A stretch of DNA of 64,000 nucleotides, taken from the NCBI GenBank assembly GCA_025812035.1, contig GCA_025812035.1_4719.1; one strand, given 5' to 3'. Source of the DNA: a phage. Position numbers and translations under genes: made by a program. The notes beneath the pieces were generated by a model. It did not search any database. It worked only from the letters and a program-made list of their open reading frames with translations, and was not told the origin of the DNA. Numbering within the stretch: position 1 is the first letter of the stretch; the number at the start of each line of letters is the position of its first letter. Shown here one piece after another: positions 7,615 to 55,982 of this stretch.

Positions 7615-7647
7615 GACGGCATAAAAGCCTCCCGTATTGGGAGGCTC
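7615..7647 (-). terminator. GC hairpin followed by TTTATGCCG
   Basis: stem AGCCTCCC/GGGAGGCT, then TTTATGCCGTC on the minus strand. Confidence 0.5.
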
Positions 7648-7658
7648 CATTAATCGGC

Positions 7659-9213: not shown

Positions 9214-9256
9214 ACGAACATAACCCTCCTCCTTCCCTTACGGGTTGGAGGAGGGG
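9214..9256 (-). terminator. GC hairpin followed by TTATGTTCG
   Basis: stem ACCCTCCTCC/GGAGGAGGGG. Confidence 0.45.
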
Positions 9257-15588: not shown

Positions 15589-15617
15589 CGGCATAAACCC
15601 TCCCCGAAGGGAGGGTG
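15589..15617 (-). terminator. GC hairpin followed by TTTATGCCG
   Basis: stem CCCTCC/GGAGGG, then TTTATGCCGCG. Confidence 0.5.
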
Positions 15618-19671: not shown

Positions 19672-19678
19672 TTAAGAA

Positions 19679-19711
19679 GCTCTGCCTGATGTCAGGCAGA
19701 GCTTTATGCTG
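19679..19711 (+). terminator. hairpin followed by TTTATGCTG after the SNF2 helicase gene
   Basis: stem GCTCTGCCTGA/TCAGGCAGAGC, then TTTATGCTG. Confidence 0.6.
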
Positions 19712-21227: not shown

Positions 21228-21247
21228 AAAAAAAATAGTTAGCATAT

Positions 21248-21288
21248 CTTCCTCCCCGCCCATAACGGGCGGGGAGGAAGGTTTATGC
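21248..21288 (+). terminator. 14-bp perfect GC hairpin between convergent genes, followed by GTTTATGCGC
   Basis: stem CTTCCTCCCCGCCC/GGGCGGGGAGGAAG, loop ATAAC. Confidence 0.6.
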
Positions 21289-27490: not shown

Positions 27491-27651
27491 AATCTCATTT
27501 CCTCTTCTACGTTAGGATAGATGACATGTTGGATATATGTTGCCTTTGCATATATTGCTTTATTTCCGTCAGAAATAACGGAAAAATAAACAACAACATA
27601 AAACCCTCCCACCTCCACGCGGGAGAGGGAGGGCGATTGGTTAATCTTTCG

Positions 27652-28455: not shown

Positions 28456-28496
28456 CAGCATAAACATCCTCCTCCCACCACATGGGCAGGAGGAGG
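28456..28496 (-). terminator. GC hairpin followed by TTTATGCTG
   Basis: stem CCTCCTCC/GGAGGAGG. Confidence 0.45.
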
Positions 28497-28507
28497 CGTA
28501 ATATACA

Positions 28508-32888: not shown

Positions 32889-34475
32889 TTAGAAGTTGCC
32901 TTTGGTAGTTACCGCATCCACCAAGTTGAACAAATCAACGCTCAGCTTATAAACCTCCTGCTGGCTACGGTTGAGCAGCGGGCTGTATGCGGACGGGTTG
33001 ATGTTCGGCATGGTGTACGGAATCGGCGCAGAGCCATCAACGCTGATCTTGAACTGGCTGTCCAGGAACAGGTTAATCGCACCGCTCACCATAACCGCAT
33101 TCGGGTTGTTACCCAACATGGAGGGTAGGATATTGGTAATCATGTCGGAACGCATTTGTTCAGCAGCACGGTTACAATCGTATCCTTTAATGAACGGTAC
33201 GGCATCGGTAACCGCAACCGCCCACTGACCAGGCATGATACCGAGTTCTGGGTGACCATGGTTGTCCGCGATGAAACGGAACGACTCCAGCATGCGATAT
33301 GTCATCGCAGCAGGCATCATCGCAGCAAGCGATGAGCAGTACAATGTCGGATAATCGATAACGTCCCAGCTCTGGCTATCGGTTGGCATCCAACCAAACT
33401 CGGTGGTTGCTGATGTACCACGACGGGCCTCCACATACGGGAATAGCGTTAAGACATCACGGATATGTTCGCCGAACATCCGTTTCATGTCGGCCCAACT
33501 CATGCTACCACTGAAAGCGAATCCTTCATCACGCATAATTGCACCGAATACGGGATGCGCAACCAACGGTTCTTCACGAACGGCTTGAGCTGCTTCTACG
33601 TAAATATCTTCGTTCTCAGCGCTACCTGGATGAGACCCACTTTCGTACGTCTGGCGGATAGCACCAACATTATCGAACGCCTTCCTTAAATAGATAGTCG
33701 GGATGTTCGTATCAACACTGGCTGGTTTGATTTTCTCCGTTGCGAAACACATCGCCGCTTCCACGCCACGAAAAACCGGTTCGGGTTGTGGTGCGTAGGA
33801 TGTACGATTAACCACATCAGCGTAGGCGGGATCGAACTGCTGCATCACGTTCTGCATGGCTGGGTCCATGAATTGGTTATCAAAACCGCCCTGACCCACC
33901 CAGCGTGCCGTCGATGCATACGTCAGCGTATCCTGAACACGAGTACTGAACTGGACGTTGCGGTTAACGGGGTCATATGCACCGGTCAAAAGGTTCGTTG
34001 CGTCCATCGGGGTTGCACGAACGATTTGCTTACCGAACATATCCGTCGTGGTTGTTTCGGTGACCTGGATTACGTTCGTGAAGAAGAACACCAGTTCGTT
34101 CGGTAGATCGATCGCACGTGTTGTAAACGCATCGAGGCTTACAGAATGGTCGGTGTATCCAGAAATGTAGTGGACACGCTTGGTTCCTGGTGCAAGAGCC
34201 AAGGATTCTTCCACAGCCATCATGAAATGGAAACGGCGTGTACCCCAACCATTCGCAATTTCCGAAACCCCCTCAGGTTCCGCAGACTGTTGCAACAAGC
34301 CGGTCGCAAGCTTATTGATTGCTGATGGTGTTGTTGCCGTACCGAACTTCGTCGTGTTGATAAAGTCTTCGATACTACGCATGCTGTCTGCGTGGAATCG
34401 TAGCGGGCGACGTTGTACATTGTTATACGGTGCGGTTTCAACCATCAGTATTTCACGAACATTCATCGGGATCAT
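32889..34475 (-). CDS. hypothetical protein (528 aa), possibly structural
   Basis: long ORF with strongly biased codon use. Confidence 0.55.
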   Translation of the reverse strand: MIPMNVREILMVETAPYNNVQRRPLRFHADSMRSIEDFINTTKFGTATTPSAINKLATGLLQQSAEPEGVSEIANGWGTRRFHFMMAVEESLALAPGTKRVHYISGYTDHSVSLDAFTTRAIDLPNELVFFFTNVIQVTETTTTDMFGKQIVRATPMDATNLLTGAYDPVNRNVQFSTRVQDTLTYASTARWVGQGGFDNQFMDPAMQNVMQQFDPAYADVVNRTSYAPQPEPVFRGVEAAMCFATEKIKPASVDTNIPTIYLRKAFDNVGAIRQTYESGSHPGSAENEDIYVEAAQAVREEPLVAHPVFGAIMRDEGFAFSGSMSWADMKRMFGEHIRDVLTLFPYVEARRGTSATTEFGWMPTDSQSWDVIDYPTLYCSSLAAMMPAAMTYRMLESFRFIADNHGHPELGIMPGQWAVAVTDAVPFIKGYDCNRAAEQMRSDMITNILPSMLGNNPNAVMVSGAINLFLDSQFKISVDGSAPIPYTMPNINPSAYSPLLNRSQQEVYKLSVDLFNLVDAVTTKGNF

Positions 34476-34476
34476 T

Positions 34477-36063
34477 TTATTTTTTTCCTCTTAAATTTAC
34501 TACGTGTTCATTTAATCGAACAACTAATTGCACAAGCTGCTGACGGATATCTGCTGGACAAAGCATCAACCCTTTACGATCAGCTGGGACTTTCTCAAGA
34601 ATTTCCGGGCCTGCTGCTGAAACATCCCAGTCCCATTCACAAAACGCATCGGCTACCATGTTAATACCGACAACCGGTAAAGTTGTACGTTCATCTTCAT
34701 ACATGGCATGCGGATACAATTTATTGACGGTAATAATCTCCTGTGGTTTTAACTGGTGGATAATCTGATAAACATCGTCACGTTTAACCTGGATACCTAC
34801 GGTCAGCGCGGCCAGTTGAGGAAAGCCCCAATGGTCTAATAAGCAAGCTGCAATTGCTAACGCTTTTGCCTGATGCACGGCTTCAATCGGTGAAAGACTT
34901 CTCGCCGGAAGATGGCTATCAAGCAGCCATTGCGCCAGCGCTCGGCATCCGCGGTTGATTGGTTTTAACTCAACGGTGTCATCGTGTTTAGCGTACGTGT
35001 ACCCATCGTAACGTTTTGCGATACGTGCGTACATGTCCTCAACTTTACCGTAAGGTGCTGTTTCGTCGACGTCGTGAAGCACCCGTTCCATCTGGGTAAG
35101 ATACGCAATATCAAGGATGAGCACGCGCGGTGAACGTTTATCTTTCACCATCAGTGCATCAATCACACCTTGGCTATCTTCATCTTGCGCGTTCCCTCGT
35201 GGGGTTTTCTCGCGAATAGGTCCACTGAAACGTCGTTCCGTACAAAGGTTATTCACGTAGCTAAAGATCAGTGTCACTAGGTGTGTACAGCTCACCAACA
35301 CCCCATCTTTAACAACAGGCTGTACGGCTTGGTCCAAATCACGTACTGCGAGACGTCTGACGATGGCTTGTGAACGCAACCAACCTGGCACTTTCTCCGT
35401 TGACATGTAATCCACTGTCATCGACAACGTGATCTTTTTATCACCCGTCTGTGCACGGATATAGTCTTCCAGTCGGTCGTAAGCAGCGATGTCGTGAATG
35501 CGTGTTTTATACATCAACGACATAGCCACTTCTTCTTTACGTACCGTCCCGTACGTTTTCCCAGCATCGATCAGAAACTCTGCCCAAATCGGCACCATCA
35601 GACGAACGTAGATCGCTAACGCCGTTAACTCAACGTAATCATTTCGTAAATAGGTTTTCTCGGGTATATCGTCCTCGCCTAATGTCGTTTTCATGTCTGG
35701 TGGTAATTTTACCCAGCCTGGGGTATTACACAACGCCAGAATCTCTTCATACACAACCGGTTTGTAGATTTCACCGACAGCGCGGCTCAACTCCTCCATT
35801 TGTTGTTGTGGAGCAATGTAGTTATCCATCGCCTCACGTGCTTTAACGAACCCTTCAAAGATGTCGTCGATGCGACGTGGGTTCTTTTGTTCTATCCAAG
35901 CGAGATACTTGTTAATCTCCCGCATCTGATTGCTGGCCATATCCCCATCGATCTTGATGTAGCCCTGACCTGAAAATTCCACGGTACGTCCATCACGATG
36001 TTTGATGAGATAGTGATCCAGCTTTTCTTTGCCTTGCGTCGTAATGACCGGCACAATGTGCAT
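34477..36063 (-). CDS. hypothetical protein (528 aa)
   Basis: long ORF; conserved promoter-like motif 54 nt upstream. Confidence 0.55.
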   Translation of the reverse strand: MHIVPVITTQGKEKLDHYLIKHRDGRTVEFSGQGYIKIDGDMASNQMREINKYLAWIEQKNPRRIDDIFEGFVKAREAMDNYIAPQQQMEELSRAVGEIYKPVVYEEILALCNTPGWVKLPPDMKTTLGEDDIPEKTYLRNDYVELTALAIYVRLMVPIWAEFLIDAGKTYGTVRKEEVAMSLMYKTRIHDIAAYDRLEDYIRAQTGDKKITLSMTVDYMSTEKVPGWLRSQAIVRRLAVRDLDQAVQPVVKDGVLVSCTHLVTLIFSYVNNLCTERRFSGPIREKTPRGNAQDEDSQGVIDALMVKDKRSPRVLILDIAYLTQMERVLHDVDETAPYGKVEDMYARIAKRYDGYTYAKHDDTVELKPINRGCRALAQWLLDSHLPARSLSPIEAVHQAKALAIAACLLDHWGFPQLAALTVGIQVKRDDVYQIIHQLKPQEIITVNKLYPHAMYEDERTTLPVVGINMVADAFCEWDWDVSAAGPEILEKVPADRKGLMLCPADIRQQLVQLVVRLNEHVVNLRGKK

Positions 36064-36112
36064 AACAACCTCTTTTCGCGGTTCCCTGTTAAAACGTCTT
36101 CAGTGACGTCTA

Positions 36113-36136
36113 CCACAAAGGTAATATAAGCGTGAA
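36113..36136 (-). promoter_or_regulatory. conserved promoter-like motif copy
   Basis: GCTTATATTACCTTTGTGG on minus strand, 54 nt upstream of gene 34477..36063. Confidence 0.4.
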
Positions 36137-36267
36137 TAATTTTGGATTCCTGCTGAGTTATCGCTCAGCATGCAAGGCATCCCGCCGAAGCGAGACACCT
36201 TGCATTAACGGAAAATATTCGCGTTACCTTCTGAATTAATGATTCAGAATGCGATGCTAAAGCGTTA

Positions 36268-37056
36268 TTAGAACGCTAAGCCATCAAAGGCTATAGACGG
36301 ATCGTCGTCGTCATTTGCGCTTGGTGCATCCCAACGGGTATCAGGGGCTGCTGGAGCCGAACTTGATGCGTTAGAGTTACCGTTGTACTGGCCGTTACCA
36401 GCATTACGGTTACCACCGCCGTTGTTATTGTTACGATTATAGCTGTTGTTGCCATTACTTACACTACGGCTTTCACCGTCGAAATTGGTTGCAAGGATGC
36501 TCGGCAACACCGCACGATGAATACGTACGAATTCCAACGCACAAAGCGGAGAAACAATCCCGATCTGTAATGGTTGTCCGGATTCATCGACCAAAGAGTG
36601 GAAACGTGGTGGCTTGAATACGAACTGAATGTTCGGTTTTTGGTACGCTGTTACAGCAATATATACCGAACCATCATCATTCTTACCAACCCATGTTGTA
36701 CTTTCGGTAATCTGCTTTTTCTTACCAGGGTTATTGCGATCGTCGATAACCTTTTCGTTCTTCATCGCAAAGCGTTGACCCGGTTTACCCTTAGCAACTT
36801 GCTCAAGGATCGCAAGTAGGTTATAGAACGCATATGAACTCATGCGCGCCCAGATACTTTCGGCGCGACCCTGTTGGTCTTTACGACCTGTATAAACCGT
36901 GATACGCGGTTGATTTTTAGCAACGCTAATTTTCAATGAGGGGATTGAATTACCGCCCTCAACCTTTTCGTCCGCCCACAGTTTCCAGTTGTTGTCGTCG
37001 TAAGCCGTAGGAATAATGTTTCCTTGTGGTTTACTGCCCGAATTCCAATTGCTCAT
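36268..37056 (-). CDS. hypothetical protein with Asn/Gly-rich linker and acidic C-terminal tip (SSB-like tail)
   Basis: C-terminus ..NNNNGGGNRNAGNGQYNGNSN..DDDDPSIAFDGLAF, similar in architecture to SSB tails ending DDDIPF. Confidence 0.5.
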   Translation of the reverse strand: MSNWNSGSKPQGNIIPTAYDDNNWKLWADEKVEGGNSIPSLKISVAKNQPRITVYTGRKDQQGRAESIWARMSSYAFYNLLAILEQVAKGKPGQRFAMKNEKVIDDRNNPGKKKQITESTTWVGKNDDGSVYIAVTAYQKPNIQFVFKPPRFHSLVDESGQPLQIGIVSPLCALEFVRIHRAVLPSILATNFDGESRSVSNGNNSYNRNNNNGGGNRNAGNGQYNGNSNASSSAPAAPDTRWDAPSANDDDDPSIAFDGLAF

Positions 37057-37129
37057 TTTCAGCCTCGTTACGTAGTGTGAATCAATTTCTGGTTCAGATG
37101 ATAGTTAATATTAGTTAAAAATTACAGCG

Positions 37130-37927
37130 TCAGCGAAACATGTCCAACAGAAAACGTTTTGCAAAGGGGTCGCGTAACTGGTTGACACCGAAGCGTGTAC
37201 GGTCTTCCGTTGTTAATGGATTCCACTGACTCTGTTTCGCAAGGTCTAACAACATCCTTTTTATTTTCACCGGCCCGCTGTTGAATTGTACAGCTTGATC
37301 CCCGAACGTTCCCAACGTCATCTTTGTAAACGGAAGGTTCGCAACCTCTGGACGATCTCCACCAGTAAGTTTGGTCGACCACTGATGTTTTCGTTTCAAG
37401 GTTCCGGTATGGCTTTCTACCAAAATAAGTTCACCAAAACCGGTTCTTGCCAACAAGTCAGAAACATAATGCGTAGTGATATACGATGTCTTGGTTATCG
37501 TAGGTAATTTACAATCCATCGATTCGATATTGGGAAGTCGATCTACAGACGCCATCAACCCACGATAAAGTGTGGCAAGTCCTTTTTGTTTTTCGGTGTG
37601 TGGCTCCTTGTGTATGGCGTGCGGATAGACACGCTTTATTGATGCATAGGTTGGCGCATATATCCGTAAACGAATATGGGGAACGAGTTCATTCACCAAC
37701 TGCCTTAGCTGCAGCAACTCGTTTTGAAAATCCCCCGTTATCATCGATAATGGTAATTTATGCTGTTCAACGTCTTCAAAGCTTTCAACAAAATTGCGTG
37801 CTAAAGTACGCAGGTTGAACAGCCAATCCATCGGTGTTTCTGGCTGTTGCTGCACGGCTGATAATGTTGCTGACGTCCCCACCGATAAAGGATAATCGCC
37901 TAACGTGCGGGCGTACATATCGCTCAT
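37130..37927 (-). CDS. hypothetical protein (start at ATG 37925..37927)
   Basis: AAGGAG RBS before internal ATG. Confidence 0.5.
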   Translation of the reverse strand: MSDMYARTLGDYPLSVGTSATLSAVQQQPETPMDWLFNLRTLARNFVESFEDVEQHKLPLSMITGDFQNELLQLRQLVNELVPHIRLRIYAPTYASIKRVYPHAIHKEPHTEKQKGLATLYRGLMASVDRLPNIESMDCKLPTITKTSYITTHYVSDLLARTGFGELILVESHTGTLKRKHQWSTKLTGGDRPEVANLPFTKMTLGTFGDQAVQFNSGPVKIKRMLLDLAKQSQWNPLTTEDRTRFGVNQLRDPFAKRFLLDMFR

Positions 37928-37946
37928 ACCCCACAACTCCTTCTTA

Positions 37947-39089
37947 TCATGGCAACGTATCAAGCCAAGCAGAAACCTTTAAGGCGTCAACGTTCGGGTA
38001 TTTATTACGGATGCGTTCGACCAACAAACGCTTAACGTTGTCCTTTGTCAAGTCCCCACCTTTCTCAATAACGTTATTGACAAAACTGTTCTTTAATAAC
38101 GACTGGTTGTTTTTGGCATCCGTTTTAATCGACCAGACAAAGCCGGGATACAAAGAAGGGATAGAACGAAACGTTTTCGCTGCGTCGTCTTCCTTATCAC
38201 AGCGTATTCGAATATGATCGCCCTTCTTCAATGAGGCCAATTCCCGTTCCAACACGCGGACGATTTCATCGCCAACAAGACCGTGCAGTTTTATCGTCTT
38301 GTAGATATCTGCTTTCTTGTTCTCGACAAATTCCCACTGATCGTTAAACGATTCGGTTAGCATATAACGAAGGTATCCTTTCGGACCTTCTTCGCCATGC
38401 GCCAAGCGACCAAACGAACCACCAACCATGATACGACCTTTCTGGGATTGTAGGTGAATATGCCCACTTACAATCCATCCCTGGGTCTTCTCTACCATTG
38501 CGTTATACGCATCGCTGCTATGAACACATGTCGCTTTTAATGCTTCTGGTGGAAGCTGATATTCAAACGCGCCGTGCATCAGAATAAAGTCCGGGGATCC
38601 CTTCTCGTCAATAAGTCGGTTCACAGCCGACAACGTCACATCTGGATCGTGGCTATAGTTATCTGGAAGATAAAGCACTTTTAAACCGAAGTCTTCATCA
38701 ACCATGCAGAGATCGTCGTAATAACGGACTTTCGCTCCTATCTCCATAACCTCGTTCTGCTCGACGAACCATTGGCTTTGCTTCTGGTCGTGTAAATTGG
38801 TGCCTTCAAGAAAGATCAAGGTGATATCATGTTCTCTCGCATACCGTAACAACCAGGTACCCCAGGCACGAACAGCAACCACGTCGCTCGTCACAAACGT
38901 CGTAATGCGATCGAAGACATCGCCACTAAATGTAATCACATCGAGTAATGCGGGATCTTCTTTTGTGATGTAGTAACGTAACTGGCTAATCAGGTTTACT
39001 GTTGGTGTTTGACGATGGATAAAATGAATATCCGATAAATTGATTCCTCGTAATACCCCAGGCGTTTTATTTCGACTGAAGTCTCGCAT
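37947..39089 (-). CDS. Mre11/SbcD-like metallophosphoesterase nuclease
   Basis: motifs LSDIHF (D-x-H), SGDVFD (GDxxD), GTNLHD, MHGAFE, SGHIH in the usual order. Confidence 0.5.
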   Translation of the reverse strand: MRDFSRNKTPGVLRGINLSDIHFIHRQTPTVNLISQLRYYITKEDPALLDVITFSGDVFDRITTFVTSDVVAVRAWGTWLLRYAREHDITLIFLEGTNLHDQKQSQWFVEQNEVMEIGAKVRYYDDLCMVDEDFGLKVLYLPDNYSHDPDVTLSAVNRLIDEKGSPDFILMHGAFEYQLPPEALKATCVHSSDAYNAMVEKTQGWIVSGHIHLQSQKGRIMVGGSFGRLAHGEEGPKGYLRYMLTESFNDQWEFVENKKADIYKTIKLHGLVGDEIVRVLERELASLKKGDHIRIRCDKEDDAAKTFRSIPSLYPGFVWSIKTDAKNNQSLLKNSFVNNVIEKGGDLTKDNVKRLLVERIRNKYPNVDALKVSAWLDTLP

Positions 39090-42256: not shown

Positions 42257-42290
42257 GGCATAAACCCTCCCCGCCTTATGCAGGGAGGGT
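42257..42290 (-). terminator. GC hairpin followed by TTTATGCCG
   Basis: stem CCCTCC/GGAGGG, then TTTATGCCGTATG. Confidence 0.5.
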
Positions 42291-43587: not shown

Positions 43588-45028
43588 CTTACGTGCACCG
43601 ACGTTTATTAACTCATGGTTATCCACTGAAATACGGCGTTAGGGAAATAATCCTTCTTGCCGCGTTTTGAGATTTGCAATGCCATATTACTCGGAGACAA
43701 TCTGTAATGCCATGCTGCTTCATCGATAGAACTAAACTTCTTTGTTTCGCCGTTATCAAAGATGATTTTCAACGCTAGTTTAGGTAAATCGTCTTCCGTT
43801 TCTACTAGTTCGAAAGAATCGATATTCTCTGCCAGCGTTAACGGATCAACAGGTAATATCAGCCAACCAGCACGCTGCAATCCTCCACGTAGACTAATTT
43901 GTTTATTCAACGCAGGGGTAGCCATGCCAACTAACTTAGCAGCCAGCTTGCGGTCTTTAATATAAAGACGATAATCTCCGGTATTATTAATAGCATACAC
44001 ACCAAAGTTATTGAACGATACCTTTCCAGCATCGGAACTAGTAAAGCCTACAAAGTCGTGGCTGTCGGTAGCCACGTCGTATTTAAATGCTAATGGCTTG
44101 TTTCGACTGCCGCTAAGATACTTCTTGGCTGTAGATACCGATATGTTGAGATATCGTCCAATAGCATTCAAACTTTCTAGTTCGATGATTTCTCCTGTCA
44201 ATATGTCCTTTAACCGAACATTACCCATCGGTATTGGTGGTTTACCGACATAACCCAATTCACGATATGCGTGTTTCAAGTTATCTGAATCAGTAGCCCA
44301 TTCCAAATTTTCTAGTCTGTTATCCCAACGCACTCCATTAAGATGATTAGGGACACGACGGATTATACCTGACGTCGGATCTGGGTTAAATGTTTCAAGG
44401 ACGATCTGATGATGGTATTTCACTTTGTTGTTCCTAGTGAAAGCGCGATAGTTGTTTTTGCCCGACTTGGGTGGTTCAGTACGAAACAACACTGTCAGAC
44501 TAGACACATCTACTATCGTACCGTTCTTATTAACAACGATACCATCAAAACCATTAACAGGACGATAATCAGACAAACAATCTTCAGAAATTGCCTGTCC
44601 AACTAAAGGTTCACTCAATTTGACCTCCTTTATAAAAGAAGTCGGTGCACGTAATTATCGACTATATCTTCATCCTCGTTGCGAGGAGTCTCCCGTTTTG
44701 GTCTGTGTTTAACAGAGCCTACTCTACTCGACATCGCGTCTTTCGATAGTCTGTGAGCACACATCTTAACGAACATTCGTGGATTCCTAAGCAGGTGAAC
44801 GTTCTTGTTGAGATGCTTCGCTGCGGATTATTCCCGTCCTACCTCTTTTACCATACCCAGTTCATTACGCTGGCCCTCATCTGTGTCACCACGATGAGTT
44901 GGTGTGTAGTCCGATTACAGAAACTTCCCGTCAATTAGAGAGTTTTAACTACGTTCCTGTTACCAGAAACCCGACTCCGACGATATCAATTAAATCAACG
45001 TAAATTATTGATTTAATTGAAGAAACTG
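43588..45028 (-). mobile_element. group I intron 1 with embedded HNH homing endonuclease gene
   Basis: IGS GAGUCGG (44971..44977) pairs with exon end CCGACUU with terminal U-G; P AAUUGACGGGAAG (44924..44936), Q AAUCCGCAGC (44820..44829), R ACAGACUAUCG (44744..44754), S AAGAUAUAGUCG (44659..44670); 12-bp stem 44641..44652 with 43591..43602 loops out the ORF; ends with G at 43588. Confidence 0.7.
43608..44618 (-). CDS. HNH homing endonuclease (intron-encoded), UUG start
   Basis: HHQIVLETF..NHLNGVRWDNRLENLEWATDSDNLKHA HNH motif; AAGGAGGT RBS before UUG; lies entirely inside intron 1. Confidence 0.75.
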   Translation of the reverse strand: MSEPLVGQAISEDCLSDYRPVNGFDGIVVNKNGTIVDVSSLTVLFRTEPPKSGKNNYRAFTRNNKVKYHHQIVLETFNPDPTSGIIRRVPNHLNGVRWDNRLENLEWATDSDNLKHAYRELGYVGKPPIPMGNVRLKDILTGEIIELESLNAIGRYLNISVSTAKKYLSGSRNKPLAFKYDVATDSHDFVGFTSSDAGKVSFNNFGVYAINNTGDYRLYIKDRKLAAKLVGMATPALNKQISLRGGLQRAGWLILPVDPLTLAENIDSFELVETEDDLPKLALKIIFDNGETKKFSSIDEAAWHYRLSPSNMALQISKRGKKDYFPNAVFQWITMS

Positions 45029-46284
45029 AAGTCGGCATTATAACCTTTCAAGATCATCACGCTTAACCCGATGGTGTTATCCTGCGGATCGCGTTTAACC
45101 TTGGTGATTTCAAGACATTGGTTACTGCTTCGGTCAAGTGATGGATTTCGAACAAAACCACACACAATCCCATCAAACGGTGTATCAGCAATAAGCTCAT
45201 CGTGCAGCTCGCTCATCATCGGATGATAATTACGGACATGTTCCGCAACGAACGCACGTGCTGCTCTTGGTGAATAACCACGATGGAATAACTTGGATTG
45301 GATATGTTCTTTATTGGTTAATGTAAATGGCGCGTATGGGAAATGCAGATGATAATAACGATGGTTCGCTGTTATCGAACTGATTACGGTACGCGTGGTG
45401 AATGGATGTAATGTACCTAATATGTTTTTACGTGTGATACCTTTCTTCTTACCGATGAACTCATCGAAAATCGCCGAGTGGTACTGCAGCAGCTTCAGTT
45501 GTACTTTCGCCATCCAGTTTTCTTTCTTTCTGGCGCTCAAAGGTGTTGTTGGGTGATAGATACTATTCAATGTACCGATAGCATCGATCGCACCTTCCAT
45601 TTTGCTATCTGCATAACGACCGGTTGGTGTATTCTCGATAACGAACATCATGGCGGCAGGAAAACTGATATACTGGCTGAAGAACTTATCGCGATGAATG
45701 CGGGTGAATTCTCGTAGCGTATCAACTTTCTCCGTGTTCTTCGGTCCGCGTAACGTAGGTCCTTTATACAAGATCTCCATGATGCGATCGAAGTTCTGTA
45801 TAAAGCTATTTATCCCACGTCGTATCCCGAATACATCGAATTGCTGCTCCAGATAGTTCTTGAGTTCGATGGGTCGTTTTACGTTTGGACGGTAACTGGC
45901 ATCAATGAGCCACGTCATCGTTTCAAAGCTTTTGATATTCAACTCGCTTGCCAGCACGAGATGGACCAACGGGTTAATAAACGCATCAATTCCTTCAGGA
46001 ACACGCGCCCAAACCGTCGAACGAATCTCTTGTTCTGCTGGGTAGGTTACAACCGTTTTACAGTTTGGACACACCGTGCCAAGCAGCTCACCACGATTGT
46101 AGAAACCACATCCACATTGTGGTGTGATATCCAACGTATCGCTGGAGTAAACACGGGTGATAAAACTGTTTAATTTCTTCTTCTCTTCGACGACTTTTGT
46201 GTCGTAATCATTCAACAAAATAGGCGTAAAAGGAAGTTCTGCGAGCTGTCTATCGAAACTCACGATATCGAGCATGATGGCCAT
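45029..46284 (-). CDS. RNA polymerase beta' N-terminal fragment, exon 1 (ends ..YNADF)
   Basis: zinc finger CGCGFYNRGELLGTVCPNCK and ..NPSL.R...Q.....IGL..ILKGYNADF parallel E. coli beta' up to NADF; unspliced frame stops 5 codons after NADF. Confidence 0.75.
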
Positions 46285-51901: not shown

Positions 51902-51941
51902 CGGCATAAAAAGAACCGATCCAGCCGAAGCCAGATCGGTT
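51902..51941 (-). terminator. hairpin followed by TTTTTATGCCG
   Basis: stem ACCGATC/GATCGGT. Confidence 0.45.
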
Positions 51942-55950: not shown

Positions 55951-55982
55951 CGGCATAAAAGCCTGCCCCGAAGGACAGGCTC
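55951..55982 (-). terminator. GC hairpin followed by TTTTATGCCG
   Basis: stem AGCCTG/CAGGCT with GC-rich interior. Confidence 0.5.

What the first reader, a model, noticed from the sequence alone, without database searches (positions are those of the whole stretch)
36064..36267. 200-nt structured intergenic region upstream of gene 34477..36063
The gap contains a copy of the promoter-like motif, a GTGACGTC site and three separate hairpins (TGCTGAG/CTCAGCA, GCAAGG..CCTTGC, TTCTGAAT/ATTCAGAA), with no ORF. It may be a regulated leader or a small RNA.
Basis: seen in the sequence. Interest (0 to 1): 0.35.

Follow-up and report, generated by a model that had tools for sequence, protein, structure and literature searches.

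The report
Terminator hairpins plus early phage promoter
This 204-base gap in a Goslar-like jumbo phage looks like an ordinary gene boundary: stable RNA hairpins at the end of the chmC message, then the phage's early promoter and a short leader for an RNA-polymerase subunit gene.

Summary
The window is a Goslar-like nucleus-forming jumbo phage (94% identical to Escherichia phage Goslar), with genes on the minus strand. The gap 36064..36267 lies between chmC (36268..37056, RNA-binding shell protein) and the homolog of phiKZ gp68 (34477..36063, fifth subunit of the non-virion RNA polymerase).

Read 5'->3' on the minus strand, the gap holds:
- three hairpins directly after the chmC stop codon;
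- a 35-nt early-promoter motif with core TATATTAC;
- a roughly 50-nt leader with one small hairpin (it contains GTGACGTC) and a Shine-Dalgarno sequence.

The three hairpins lie upstream of the promoter, so they belong to the chmC 3' UTR, not to the leader made from this promoter. They are far more stable than chance (z = -6.5). Across 18 Goslar-like variants they stay paired through wobble-compatible changes. Relatives at about 50% protein identity, and phiKZ and PhiPA3, have a single unrelated hairpin at this position followed by the same promoter type.

The hairpins match neither the phage's canonical terminator motif nor any Rfam family. GTGACGTC is not enriched. Best reading: terminator or stabiliser hairpins, plus a virion-polymerase early promoter, plus a 5' UTR. 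This is an ordinary, previously unannotated member of a known architecture.

The parts
36268..37056 (-). chmC homolog (Goslar gp176): a phage-nucleus-associated, Whirly-fold RNA-binding protein with an N/G-rich tail. Its stop codon TAA is at 36270..36268.
   Evidence: Same position as Goslar_00176. Goslar gp176 is named ChmC in PMC11077065. 28% identity to PhiPA3 gp61, E = 1e-15. 60% identity to the gene upstream of the gp68 homolog in L008.
36229..36249 (-). Hairpin 1: 8-bp A/U-rich stem UUCUGAAU/AUUCAGAA with a 5-nt loop, about -6 kcal/mol.
   Evidence: The lower 6 pairs are invariant in 18 variants. The apex pair varies A-U / G-U, with one A.C. The loop is free to vary and is inverted (CATTA <-> TAATG) in L011 and L031.
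36170..36205 (-). Hairpin 2: continuous 16-bp helix with a UUCG tetraloop, -26.2 kcal/mol as sense RNA. This is the main candidate terminator or 3' stabiliser of chmC mRNA. Its tail is AUGCUG.
   Evidence: The antisense version reaches only -16.2 kcal/mol because the G.U pairs become A.C. 100% of cells are paired in 18 variants. L042 converts two wobble pairs to G-C, and L034 changes A-U to G-U. It is the only intergenic hairpin + ATGCYG case in the window with CATG rather than TATG.
36152..36169 (-). Hairpin 3: 6-bp stem GCUGAG/CUCAGC with a 6-nt loop, -7.8 kcal/mol. It abuts hairpin 2 directly and ends 3 nt before the promoter.
Evidence: The stem is invariant in 18 variants and the loop shows one change.
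36114..36148 (-). Early (virion RNA polymerase type) promoter: AATCCAAAATTA-TTCACGCT-TATATTAC-CTTTGTG. The core TATATTAC lies at 36121..36128. The predicted start site is about 36114..36116.
   Evidence: 4 copies in the window against 0 expected. 12 copies genome-wide in Goslar, all on the minus strand and nearly all upstream of genes, including chmA. The identical octamer lies upstream of phiKZ gp68 and PhiPA3 gp62. Start-site position is inferred from the published rule that the motif is centred near -10 (PMC7598289).
36092..36111 (-). Hairpin 4 in the 5' UTR: AGACGUC-ACUGAA-GACGUUU, about -7 kcal/mol, beginning 3 to 5 nt after the predicted start site.
   Evidence: L012 keeps the stem through a compensatory C-G -> U-A change and so loses GTGACGTC. 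L039 breaks one pair.
36061..36074 (-). Shine-Dalgarno AAGAGG (36069..36074), a 5-nt spacer, and the ATG (36063..36061) of the gp68 homolog.
   Evidence: Direct reading. This part of the leader is nearly invariant, with 1 of 28 columns variable in the first 9 sequences.
34477..36063 (-). Homolog of phiKZ gp68, the fifth (sigma-like position) subunit of the non-virion RNA polymerase.
   Evidence: tblastn to PHIKZ068, E = 2e-27. PDB chains 7ogp_B and 9rjs_B, named 'PHIKZ068', E = 2e-28. gp68 is an early gene product and an nvRNAP subunit (PMC4666361).

Best explanation
The gap is a composite transcription-unit boundary of a chimallivirus, read on the minus strand.

(1) Hairpins 1 to 3 form in the 3' untranslated end of the early, abundant chmC mRNA. 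The 16-bp UUCG-capped hairpin 2 is the dominant one. They most likely stop or pause the phage RNA polymerases, protect the 3' end against exonucleases, or both. That would insulate chmC from the next gene. This step is inferred.

(2) Directly after hairpin 3 sits an early promoter of the type used by the injected virion RNA polymerase. It restarts transcription at about 36114..36116. The motif and its context are shown here. The polymerase and the start site are inferred by homology with phiKZ and 201phi2-1.

(3) The resulting leader of about 50 nt carries a small hairpin close to its 5' end and a strong Shine-Dalgarno sequence. It drives early synthesis of the gp68-like subunit of the non-virion RNA polymerase, which the phage needs for middle and late transcription.
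For: Gene identities:
- chmC.
- gp68 homolog.

Promoter:
- The 23-nt motif occurs 4 times in the window against 0 expected, always upstream of minus-strand genes.
- Goslar has 12 copies genome-wide, including one upstream of chimallin chmA.
- The same TATATTAC octamer lies upstream of phiKZ gp68 and PhiPA3 gp62. Related TATATATTATCTTAGTG motifs lie upstream of the gp68 homologs of Salmonella phage SPLA10 and Erwinia phage pEa_SNUABM_54.
- gp68 and the other nvRNAP subunits are early gene products (PMC4666361).
- 201phi2-1 has an ONT-cappable-seq-mapped early promoter upstream of gp124, its gp68 homolog (PMC11512511; homology note).
- Goslar chmC is expressed in the early, vesicle stage (bioRxiv 10.1101/2023.09.20.558163).

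Hairpins:
- z = -6.5 for the 3' UTR part.
- Hairpin 2 is 10 kcal/mol more stable as sense RNA than as antisense RNA because of its G.U pairs.
- In the first 9 sequences, stem columns vary less than unpaired columns: 4 of 60 against 17 of 57, Fisher p = 0.0014.
- In 18 variants, 99.7% of pair cells stay paired. Stem changes are wobble-compatible transitions, including two wobble -> G-C changes in L042.

Conserved architecture: chmC stop, then at least one stable hairpin, then the early promoter, then a leader. This order is seen in L008, L009, phiKZ, PhiPA3 and SPLA10.
Against: - None of the three hairpins is followed by a U-run. The terminator scan finds nothing in the gap.
- The Goslar GenBank record annotates putative terminators at more than 20 other sites but none here.
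- The hairpins do not match the conserved phiKZ-type terminator motif, which is otherwise common in this window. Only the AUGCUG tail of hairpin 2 resembles it.
- Three hairpins where relatives have one is not explained.
- Covariation is not statistically demonstrated: shuffles reach the observed score in 321 of 500 trials, and there is only one double-sided change, which is in hairpin 4.
- I examined no transcript-end data for Goslar. The start site and the 3' ends are predictions.
Confidence: 0.75

Rival explanations
1. The hairpins act as a regulated attenuator or long leader. In transcripts that start upstream and read through chmC, hairpins 1 to 3 would control how much polymerase or ribosome reaches the gp68-homolog gene, for instance at middle or late times.
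For: - The hairpins lack a U-run, so termination may be partial.
- The whole-gap minimum-energy fold pairs the Shine-Dalgarno region with the sequence just after the chmC stop codon.
- Conditional termination in 5' UTRs has been reported for phiKZ and 201phi2-1 (PMC10914365; PMC11512511).
Against: - The Shine-Dalgarno pairing is absent from the centroid structure. One of its pairs is broken by the T->C change in L003.
- A dedicated early promoter lies between the hairpins and the gene, so the gene does not depend on read-through.
- Relatives keep only one generic hairpin.
- No alternative-structure signature or Rfam match was found.
Confidence: 0.12
2. The hairpin cluster is a small RNA. It would be either independently transcribed or cut from the chmC 3' UTR, and would act in trans or as a protein-binding RNA (for example for ChmC).
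For: - Hairpins 2 and 3 are nearly invariant in 18 genomes while the neighbouring unpaired columns vary.
- The structure is specific to the sense strand.
- Small RNAs have been reported in related jumbo phages (PMC11512511).
Against: - No early-promoter or sigma-70-type motif was found upstream of the hairpins.
- The best Rfam hit is istR at 19.7 bits against a threshold of 45, E = 0.12.
- Sequence and hairpin number are not conserved in L008, L009, phiKZ or PhiPA3.
- No candidate target or seed region was identified.
Confidence: 0.08
3. The inverted repeats work as DNA, for example as cruciforms or protein-binding palindromes that modulate the adjacent promoter, rather than as RNA.
For: - Hairpin 3 ends 3 nt from the upstream edge of the promoter and is invariant.
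- The plus strand also folds better than chance, z = -5.8.
Against: - Hairpin 2 relies on four G.U pairs, which are mismatches in DNA and on the opposite strand: -26.2 against -16.2 kcal/mol.
- The observed stem changes are the wobble-compatible kind expected for RNA.
- Other copies of the promoter in the window have no such adjacent palindromes.
Confidence: 0.04

Closest known systems
phiKZ gp67(chmC)-gp68 and PhiPA3 gp61-gp62 intergenic regions
   Same: Same two flanking genes in the same order. A stable hairpin follows the chmC stop codon, then an AT-rich stretch with the identical TATATTAC octamer, then a short leader with a Shine-Dalgarno sequence.
   Different: phiKZ and PhiPA3 have one hairpin, directly followed by TATGCCC (terminator-motif tail), and gaps of 125 to 129 nt. 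The Goslar-like phages have three hairpins of unrelated sequence, no TTAT tail and a 204-nt gap.
Early (virion RNA polymerase) promoters of phiKZ-like jumbo phages, including the mapped early promoter upstream of 201phi2-1 gp124
   Same: A conserved AT-rich core upstream of early genes such as chimallin and nvRNAP subunits. It can be found by sequence alone and is repeated across the genome in one orientation (PMC7598289, PMC8244752, PMC11512511).
   Different: The Goslar-type flanks (TTCACGG upstream, CCTAGGTGA downstream) are lineage-specific. I read no published Goslar promoter consensus; Armbruster et al. report start sites for two genes only in a figure that was not readable here. The start site here is predicted, not mapped.
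Conserved phiKZ-type intrinsic terminator (BCCYCCCCHWWDGGGRRGGBYTTATKYYGT; Putzeys et al. 2024, PMC10914365)
   Same: A stable stem-loop just after a stop codon. Hairpin 2 shares the UUCG-type loop seen in several copies in this window and the ATGCTG part of the tail.
   Different: It lacks the CCYCCCC/GGGRRGG stem sequence and has GCAT where the motif has TTAT. Pattern searches that recover the canonical copies in the window do not hit the gap.
5'UTR-derived short RNAs and conditional terminators of phiKZ and 201phi2-1
   Same: A small hairpin followed by UUUU lies a few nucleotides after a predicted early start site (hairpin 4).
   Different: Hairpin 4 is weak (about -7 kcal/mol). The leader as a whole is not more structured than shuffles (z = -1.1). 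No transcript data exist for it.

Membership tests
Chimallivirus early (vRNAP) promoter | Conserved AT-rich core of about 10 nt (phiKZ: TATATTAC) | tested here: met
   TATATTAC lies at 36121..36128 (minus strand). The identical octamer is upstream of phiKZ gp68 and PhiPA3 gp62.
Chimallivirus early (vRNAP) promoter | The extended motif recurs upstream of several genes, in their orientation, more often than chance | tested here: met
   4 copies in the window against 0 expected. 12 copies in the Goslar genome, all on the minus strand.
Chimallivirus early (vRNAP) promoter | Precedes genes known to be early (chimallin, nvRNAP subunits) | tested here: met
   Copies lie upstream of chmA and of the gp68 homolog. 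Early status comes from PMC4666361, PMC8244752 and bioRxiv 10.1101/2023.09.20.558163.
Chimallivirus early (vRNAP) promoter | Primary 5' ends about 10 nt downstream of the motif, early in infection, made by the virion polymerase | not testable with these tools
   No Goslar 5'-end data were available. The supplements of the Goslar RNA-seq preprint are not held.
phiKZ-type conserved intrinsic terminator | Stable stem-loop shortly after the stop codon of the upstream gene | tested here: met
   Hairpin 2 is -26.2 kcal/mol with z = -7.4 and starts 62 nt after the stop codon. Hairpin 1 starts 18 nt after the stop codon.
phiKZ-type conserved intrinsic terminator | CCYCCCC / GGGRRGG stem sequence | tested here: not met
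   Pattern searches recover the canonical copies elsewhere in the window but find none in the gap.
phiKZ-type conserved intrinsic terminator | TTAT / U-rich tail after the stem | tested here: not met
   The tails are GGUAAC, (GCAU)GCUGAG and AGGAAU. The terminator scan reports no site in the gap. Only ATGCTG is shared with the motif.
phiKZ-type conserved intrinsic terminator | Transcript 3' ends map to the hairpin | not testable with these tools
   Needs Term-seq or ONT-cappable-seq on Goslar.
Independent small RNA gene | Own promoter directly upstream of the structured part | tested here: not met
   The hairpins begin 18 nt after the chmC stop codon. No early-promoter or sigma-70-like motif lies there.
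Independent small RNA gene | Sequence or structure conserved beyond closest relatives, or a match to a described family | tested here: not met
   Rfam gives nothing significant. L008, L009, phiKZ and PhiPA3 have different single hairpins.
Independent small RNA gene | Discrete short transcript in infected cells | not testable with these tools
   No RNA data were accessible.
Cis-regulatory structured leader (riboswitch / attenuator) | Structure lies between the transcription start and the start codon | tested here: not met
   Hairpins 1 to 3 lie upstream of the promoter. The 53-nt promoter-proximal leader gives z = -1.1.
Cis-regulatory structured leader (riboswitch / attenuator) | Mutually exclusive structures that expose or hide the Shine-Dalgarno sequence or a terminator | tested here: inconclusive
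   Pairing of the Shine-Dalgarno region with the post-stop sequence appears only in the whole-gap minimum-energy fold, not in the centroid. It is not consistently kept in relatives.

The most novel reading that the evidence does not exclude
The nearly invariant, sense-strand-specific hairpin 2 plus hairpin 3 tandem could be a Goslar-genus-specific functional RNA module in the chmC 3' UTR. It could be a 3'UTR-derived small RNA, or a recognition element for ChmC or the nuclear-shell export machinery. Either would link the fate of chmC mRNA to expression of the adjacent RNA-polymerase subunit.
Probability: 0.07. Interest if true: 0.55.

Novelty: new member of a known kind. Interest (0 to 1): 0.17.

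Why it matters
It gives a sequence-level definition of the Goslar-type early promoter. It also places one copy directly in front of the gene for the sigma-like subunit of the second phage RNA polymerase. That fits the cascade known from phiKZ, where the virion polymerase makes the non-virion polymerase, and shows the arrangement is conserved from Pseudomonas to E. coli nucleus-forming phages. This is useful for annotating Goslar-like genomes and for designing knock-downs or reporters. It does not open a new question. The only unexplained aspect is why this lineage keeps three conserved hairpins where relatives keep one.

Tried and rejected
- Rfam at gathering thresholds over the whole window, and at E <= 10 over 35900..36400: nothing credible. 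The best hit is istR at 19.7 bits against a threshold of 45.
- Sigma-70 promoter and intrinsic-terminator scans: no site in the gap.
- GTGACGTC as a special site: not enriched and not conserved in L012.
- Small ORFs: only 25 to 35 aa ORFs lie within the gap. The 32-aa ORF spans the site of the 38-39 nt insertions seen in relatives.
- A possible fourth stem between hairpins 1 and 2 (36206..36226, -5.5 kcal/mol): rejected, because substitutions in L012, L013 and L014 break it.
- Similarity of the gap to other phages: only Goslar itself matches.
- Covariation statistics on 9 and then 18 variants: too little variation to be significant.
- Whether the two adjacent 528-aa genes are paralogs: no (E = 0.076).
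- Published start and termination tables for phiKZ, and read counts for Goslar: the supplements are not held. Ceyssens et al. 2014 could not be retrieved.

Full report
**Source and setting.** Window 35000..38000 is 94.2% identical to Escherichia phage vB_EcoM_Goslar, a nucleus-forming jumbo phage (Chimalliviridae). It is collinear with Goslar genes 00173 to 00186, all on the minus strand.
- The gene ending at 36268 (36268..37056, minus strand) corresponds to Goslar gp176. Enustun et al. name gp176 ChmC, an early, abundant, Whirly-fold RNA-binding protein of the phage nucleus with an N/G-rich tail (PMC11077065). It aligns with PhiPA3 gp61/ChmC (E = 1e-15).
- The gene starting at 36063 (34477..36063, minus strand) is the homolog of phiKZ gp68. 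It matches the PHIKZ068 chains in the solved non-virion RNA polymerase structures (7ogp, E = 2e-28).
- gp68 is the fifth subunit of that polymerase and an early gene product (PMC4666361).
- The finding is therefore the chmC-gp68 intergenic region, and it must be read on the minus strand.

**Check of the observation.**
- On the minus strand the whole gap folds to -72.5 kcal/mol against -48.2 +/- 4.4 for dinucleotide shuffles (z = -5.5). The plus strand gives z = -4.3.
- Among the intergenic gaps of the window, this is the most structured one longer than 100 nt.
- GTGACGTC occurs 4 times in the window against 3.3 expected, so it carries no signal of its own.
- Only 25 to 35 aa ORFs lie within the gap. 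The 32-aa ORF spans the site where 6 of the 18 distinct relatives carry a 38-39 nt insertion.

**Anatomy, 5' to 3' on the minus strand**.
- Stop codon TAA at 36270..36268.
- Hairpin 1 at 36249..36229: 8 bp, A/U-rich, about -6 kcal/mol.
- A 23-nt spacer.
- Hairpin 2 at 36205..36170: a continuous 16-bp helix closed by a UUCG loop, -26.2 kcal/mol, z = -7.4.
- Hairpin 3 at 36169..36152: 6 bp, -7.8 kcal/mol, with no linker after hairpin 2.
- A promoter-like block, AATCCAAAATTA TTCACGCT TATATTAC CTTTGTG, at 36148..36114, three bases further on.
- Hairpin 4 at 36111..36092: 7 bp, about -7 kcal/mol. It contains GTGACGTC.
- Shine-Dalgarno AAGAGG at 36074..36069, then the ATG at 36063.
- The part that holds hairpins 1 to 3 accounts for the structure signal (z = -6.5). 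The 53 nt from the predicted start site to the ATG are not unusual (z = -1.1).

**The promoter.**
- The 23-nt motif occurs four times in the window with at most 3 mismatches, against 0 expected. Every copy lies upstream of a minus-strand gene.
- One copy lies in front of the ORF that matches Goslar chimallin ChmA (PDB 7sqt, E = 0).
- Across the Goslar genome I found 12 copies, all on the minus strand and nearly all intergenic. The consensus is roughly aatccaacattt-TTCACGGCTA(T/C)ATTACCTAGGTGA.
- The same TATATTAC octamer lies upstream of phiKZ gp68 and PhiPA3 gp62. Related TATATATTATCTTAGTG motifs lie upstream of the gp68 homologs of Salmonella phage SPLA10 and Erwinia phage pEa_SNUABM_54.
- The literature says every RNAP-encoding jumbo phage has a conserved AT-rich element of about 10 nt, centred near -10, upstream of early operons, and that it is the early (virion RNA polymerase) promoter (PMC7598289; PMC8244752).
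- An early promoter was mapped experimentally upstream of 201phi2-1 gp124, the gp68 homolog (PMC11512511; homology note).
- I therefore assign 36114..36148 as an early promoter, with a start site near 36114..36116. The motif and its context are shown here. The polymerase and the exact start are inferred.
- No sigma-70-like promoter is present.

**The hairpins.** Because they lie upstream of the promoter, hairpins 1 to 3 belong to the 3' end of the chmC transcript.
- From metagenome and isolate assemblies I gathered 26 Goslar-like loci, which together with the window gave 18 distinct gap sequences.
- In the first 9 sequences, stem columns vary less than unpaired columns: 4 of 60 against 17 of 57, Fisher p = 0.0014. 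The five loop columns of hairpin 1 are not independent events, so this overstates the contrast somewhat.
- In the 18-sequence alignment, 99.7% of pair cells remain paired.
- All stem changes in hairpins 1 to 3 are transitions that switch between Watson-Crick and G.U pairs. L042 changes two wobble pairs to G-C in hairpin 2, and L034 changes A-U to G-U. There is one exception, an A.C in L003.
- Hairpin 2 is 10 kcal/mol more stable as sense RNA than as antisense RNA, because its G.U pairs become A.C on the other strand. This points to function as RNA made in the gene direction.
- Formal covariation is not significant. There is very little variation, and the only double-sided change lies in hairpin 4 of L012 (C-G -> U-A), which also removes GTGACGTC.

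**Wider comparison.** Two relatives at 51 to 53% gp68-homolog identity (L008, L009) have the same gene order; in L008 the upstream gene is 60% identical to ChmC.
- Each has a single long hairpin of unrelated sequence after the chmC stop codon: 11 bp in L008 and 13 bp in L009.
- It is followed by AAAACTACATTACCTA(A/T)GTG and a leader of about 45 to 60 nt.
- phiKZ and PhiPA3 show the same order, again with one hairpin.
- So the architecture is old and general. The particular three hairpins are confined to the Goslar genus.

**Are the hairpins terminators?** Putzeys et al. mapped 133 termination sites in phiKZ. Sixty-one share the motif BCCYCCCCHWWDGGGRRGGBYTTATKYYGT (PMC10914365).
- This window contains many copies of that module: a CCCTCCC/GGGAGGG hairpin followed by T(T)TATGC(C/T)G.
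- The gap's hairpins do not match it. They have a different stem sequence and no TTAT or U-run.
- The Goslar record annotates no terminator here.
- Hairpin 2 shares only the UUCG-type loop and the ATGCTG tail. It is the one intergenic hairpin + ATGCYG case in the window with CATG rather than TATG.
- More than half of the mapped phiKZ and 201phi2-1 termination sites also lack that motif, so a terminator role remains plausible.
- Protection of the 3' end, or processing, is equally compatible. I cannot separate these roles without RNA data.

**Conclusion.** The region is a composite gene boundary.
- It consists of 3' UTR hairpins of chmC, a virion-polymerase early promoter, and a short leader for the gp68-like polymerase subunit. 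I put this at about 0.75.
- A read-through attenuator (about 0.12) or a 3'UTR-derived or protein-binding RNA (about 0.08) remains possible.
- The element is an unannotated member of a known kind. Interest is low.

Noticed in passing
window 7624-7648(-), 9226-9256(+), 15597-15616(-), 19676-19705(+), 21246-21282(both strands), 27604-27627(-), 28468-28496(-), 42264-42290(-), 51914-51941(-), 55959-55982(-): Recurrent module at gene ends: a GC-rich CCCTCCC/GGGAGGG hairpin followed by T(T)TATGC(C/T)G. It closely matches the published phiKZ conserved terminator consensus. The motif therefore appears conserved from Pseudomonas phiKZ to E. coli Goslar-like phages. Its tail contains TATG, the phiKZ late-promoter and start-site motif.
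   Followed up: partly
L003 2756-3003, L013 945-1193, L014 2255-2503, also L025, L032 and L039; insertion point corresponds to window ~36120-36124: Six of the 18 distinct Goslar-like gap variants carry a 38-39 nt insertion immediately after TATATTACCT. It is flanked by a TTACCT direct repeat and holds its own 8-bp hairpin (CTCTATGA-ACAAAG-TCATAGAG). It would lengthen the leader and replace the sequence around the predicted start site.
   Followed up: partly
window 36236-36242 versus L011 and L031: The loop of hairpin 1 is exactly inverted between genomes (CATTA versus TAATG) while the stem stays identical. This is the signature of a hairpin-loop inversion event.
   Followed up: no
window 44642-45019 (-): A full-length group I intron match (RF00028, 47.8 bits, E = 5.5e-11) falls just below Rfam's gathering score of 50, so the default scan missed it. 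It lies between the RNA-polymerase beta'-like ORF (45013..46284) and an ORF (43608..44618) that corresponds by position to Goslar's NUMOD1/HNH protein gene. The corresponding Goslar position is annotated Intron_gpI.
   Followed up: partly
window 28468-28505 (-): A TATATTAC core that lacks the upstream TTCACG half is followed, after one base, by a canonical terminator module (CCTCCTCC...GGAGGAGG-ATGTTTATGCTG). This is either a chance core or a promoter-terminator pair that would give a very short RNA.
   Followed up: no
protein cluster of the gp68 homolog (P0007 and others): The identical or near-identical protein is found on hundreds of contigs; P0007 alone is on 361, the longest 248 kb. Other cluster members lie on contigs up to 236-244 kb. 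Many come from E. coli, Salmonella and Shigella isolate assemblies, so Goslar-like phages are common passengers in enterobacterial sequencing projects.
   Followed up: no
window 32889-34475 (-) and 34477-36063 (-): Two adjacent genes of exactly 528 aa each (homologs of phiKZ gp69 and gp68), separated by a single base. They show no detectable sequence similarity to each other (E = 0.076), so the equal length appears coincidental.
   Followed up: yes
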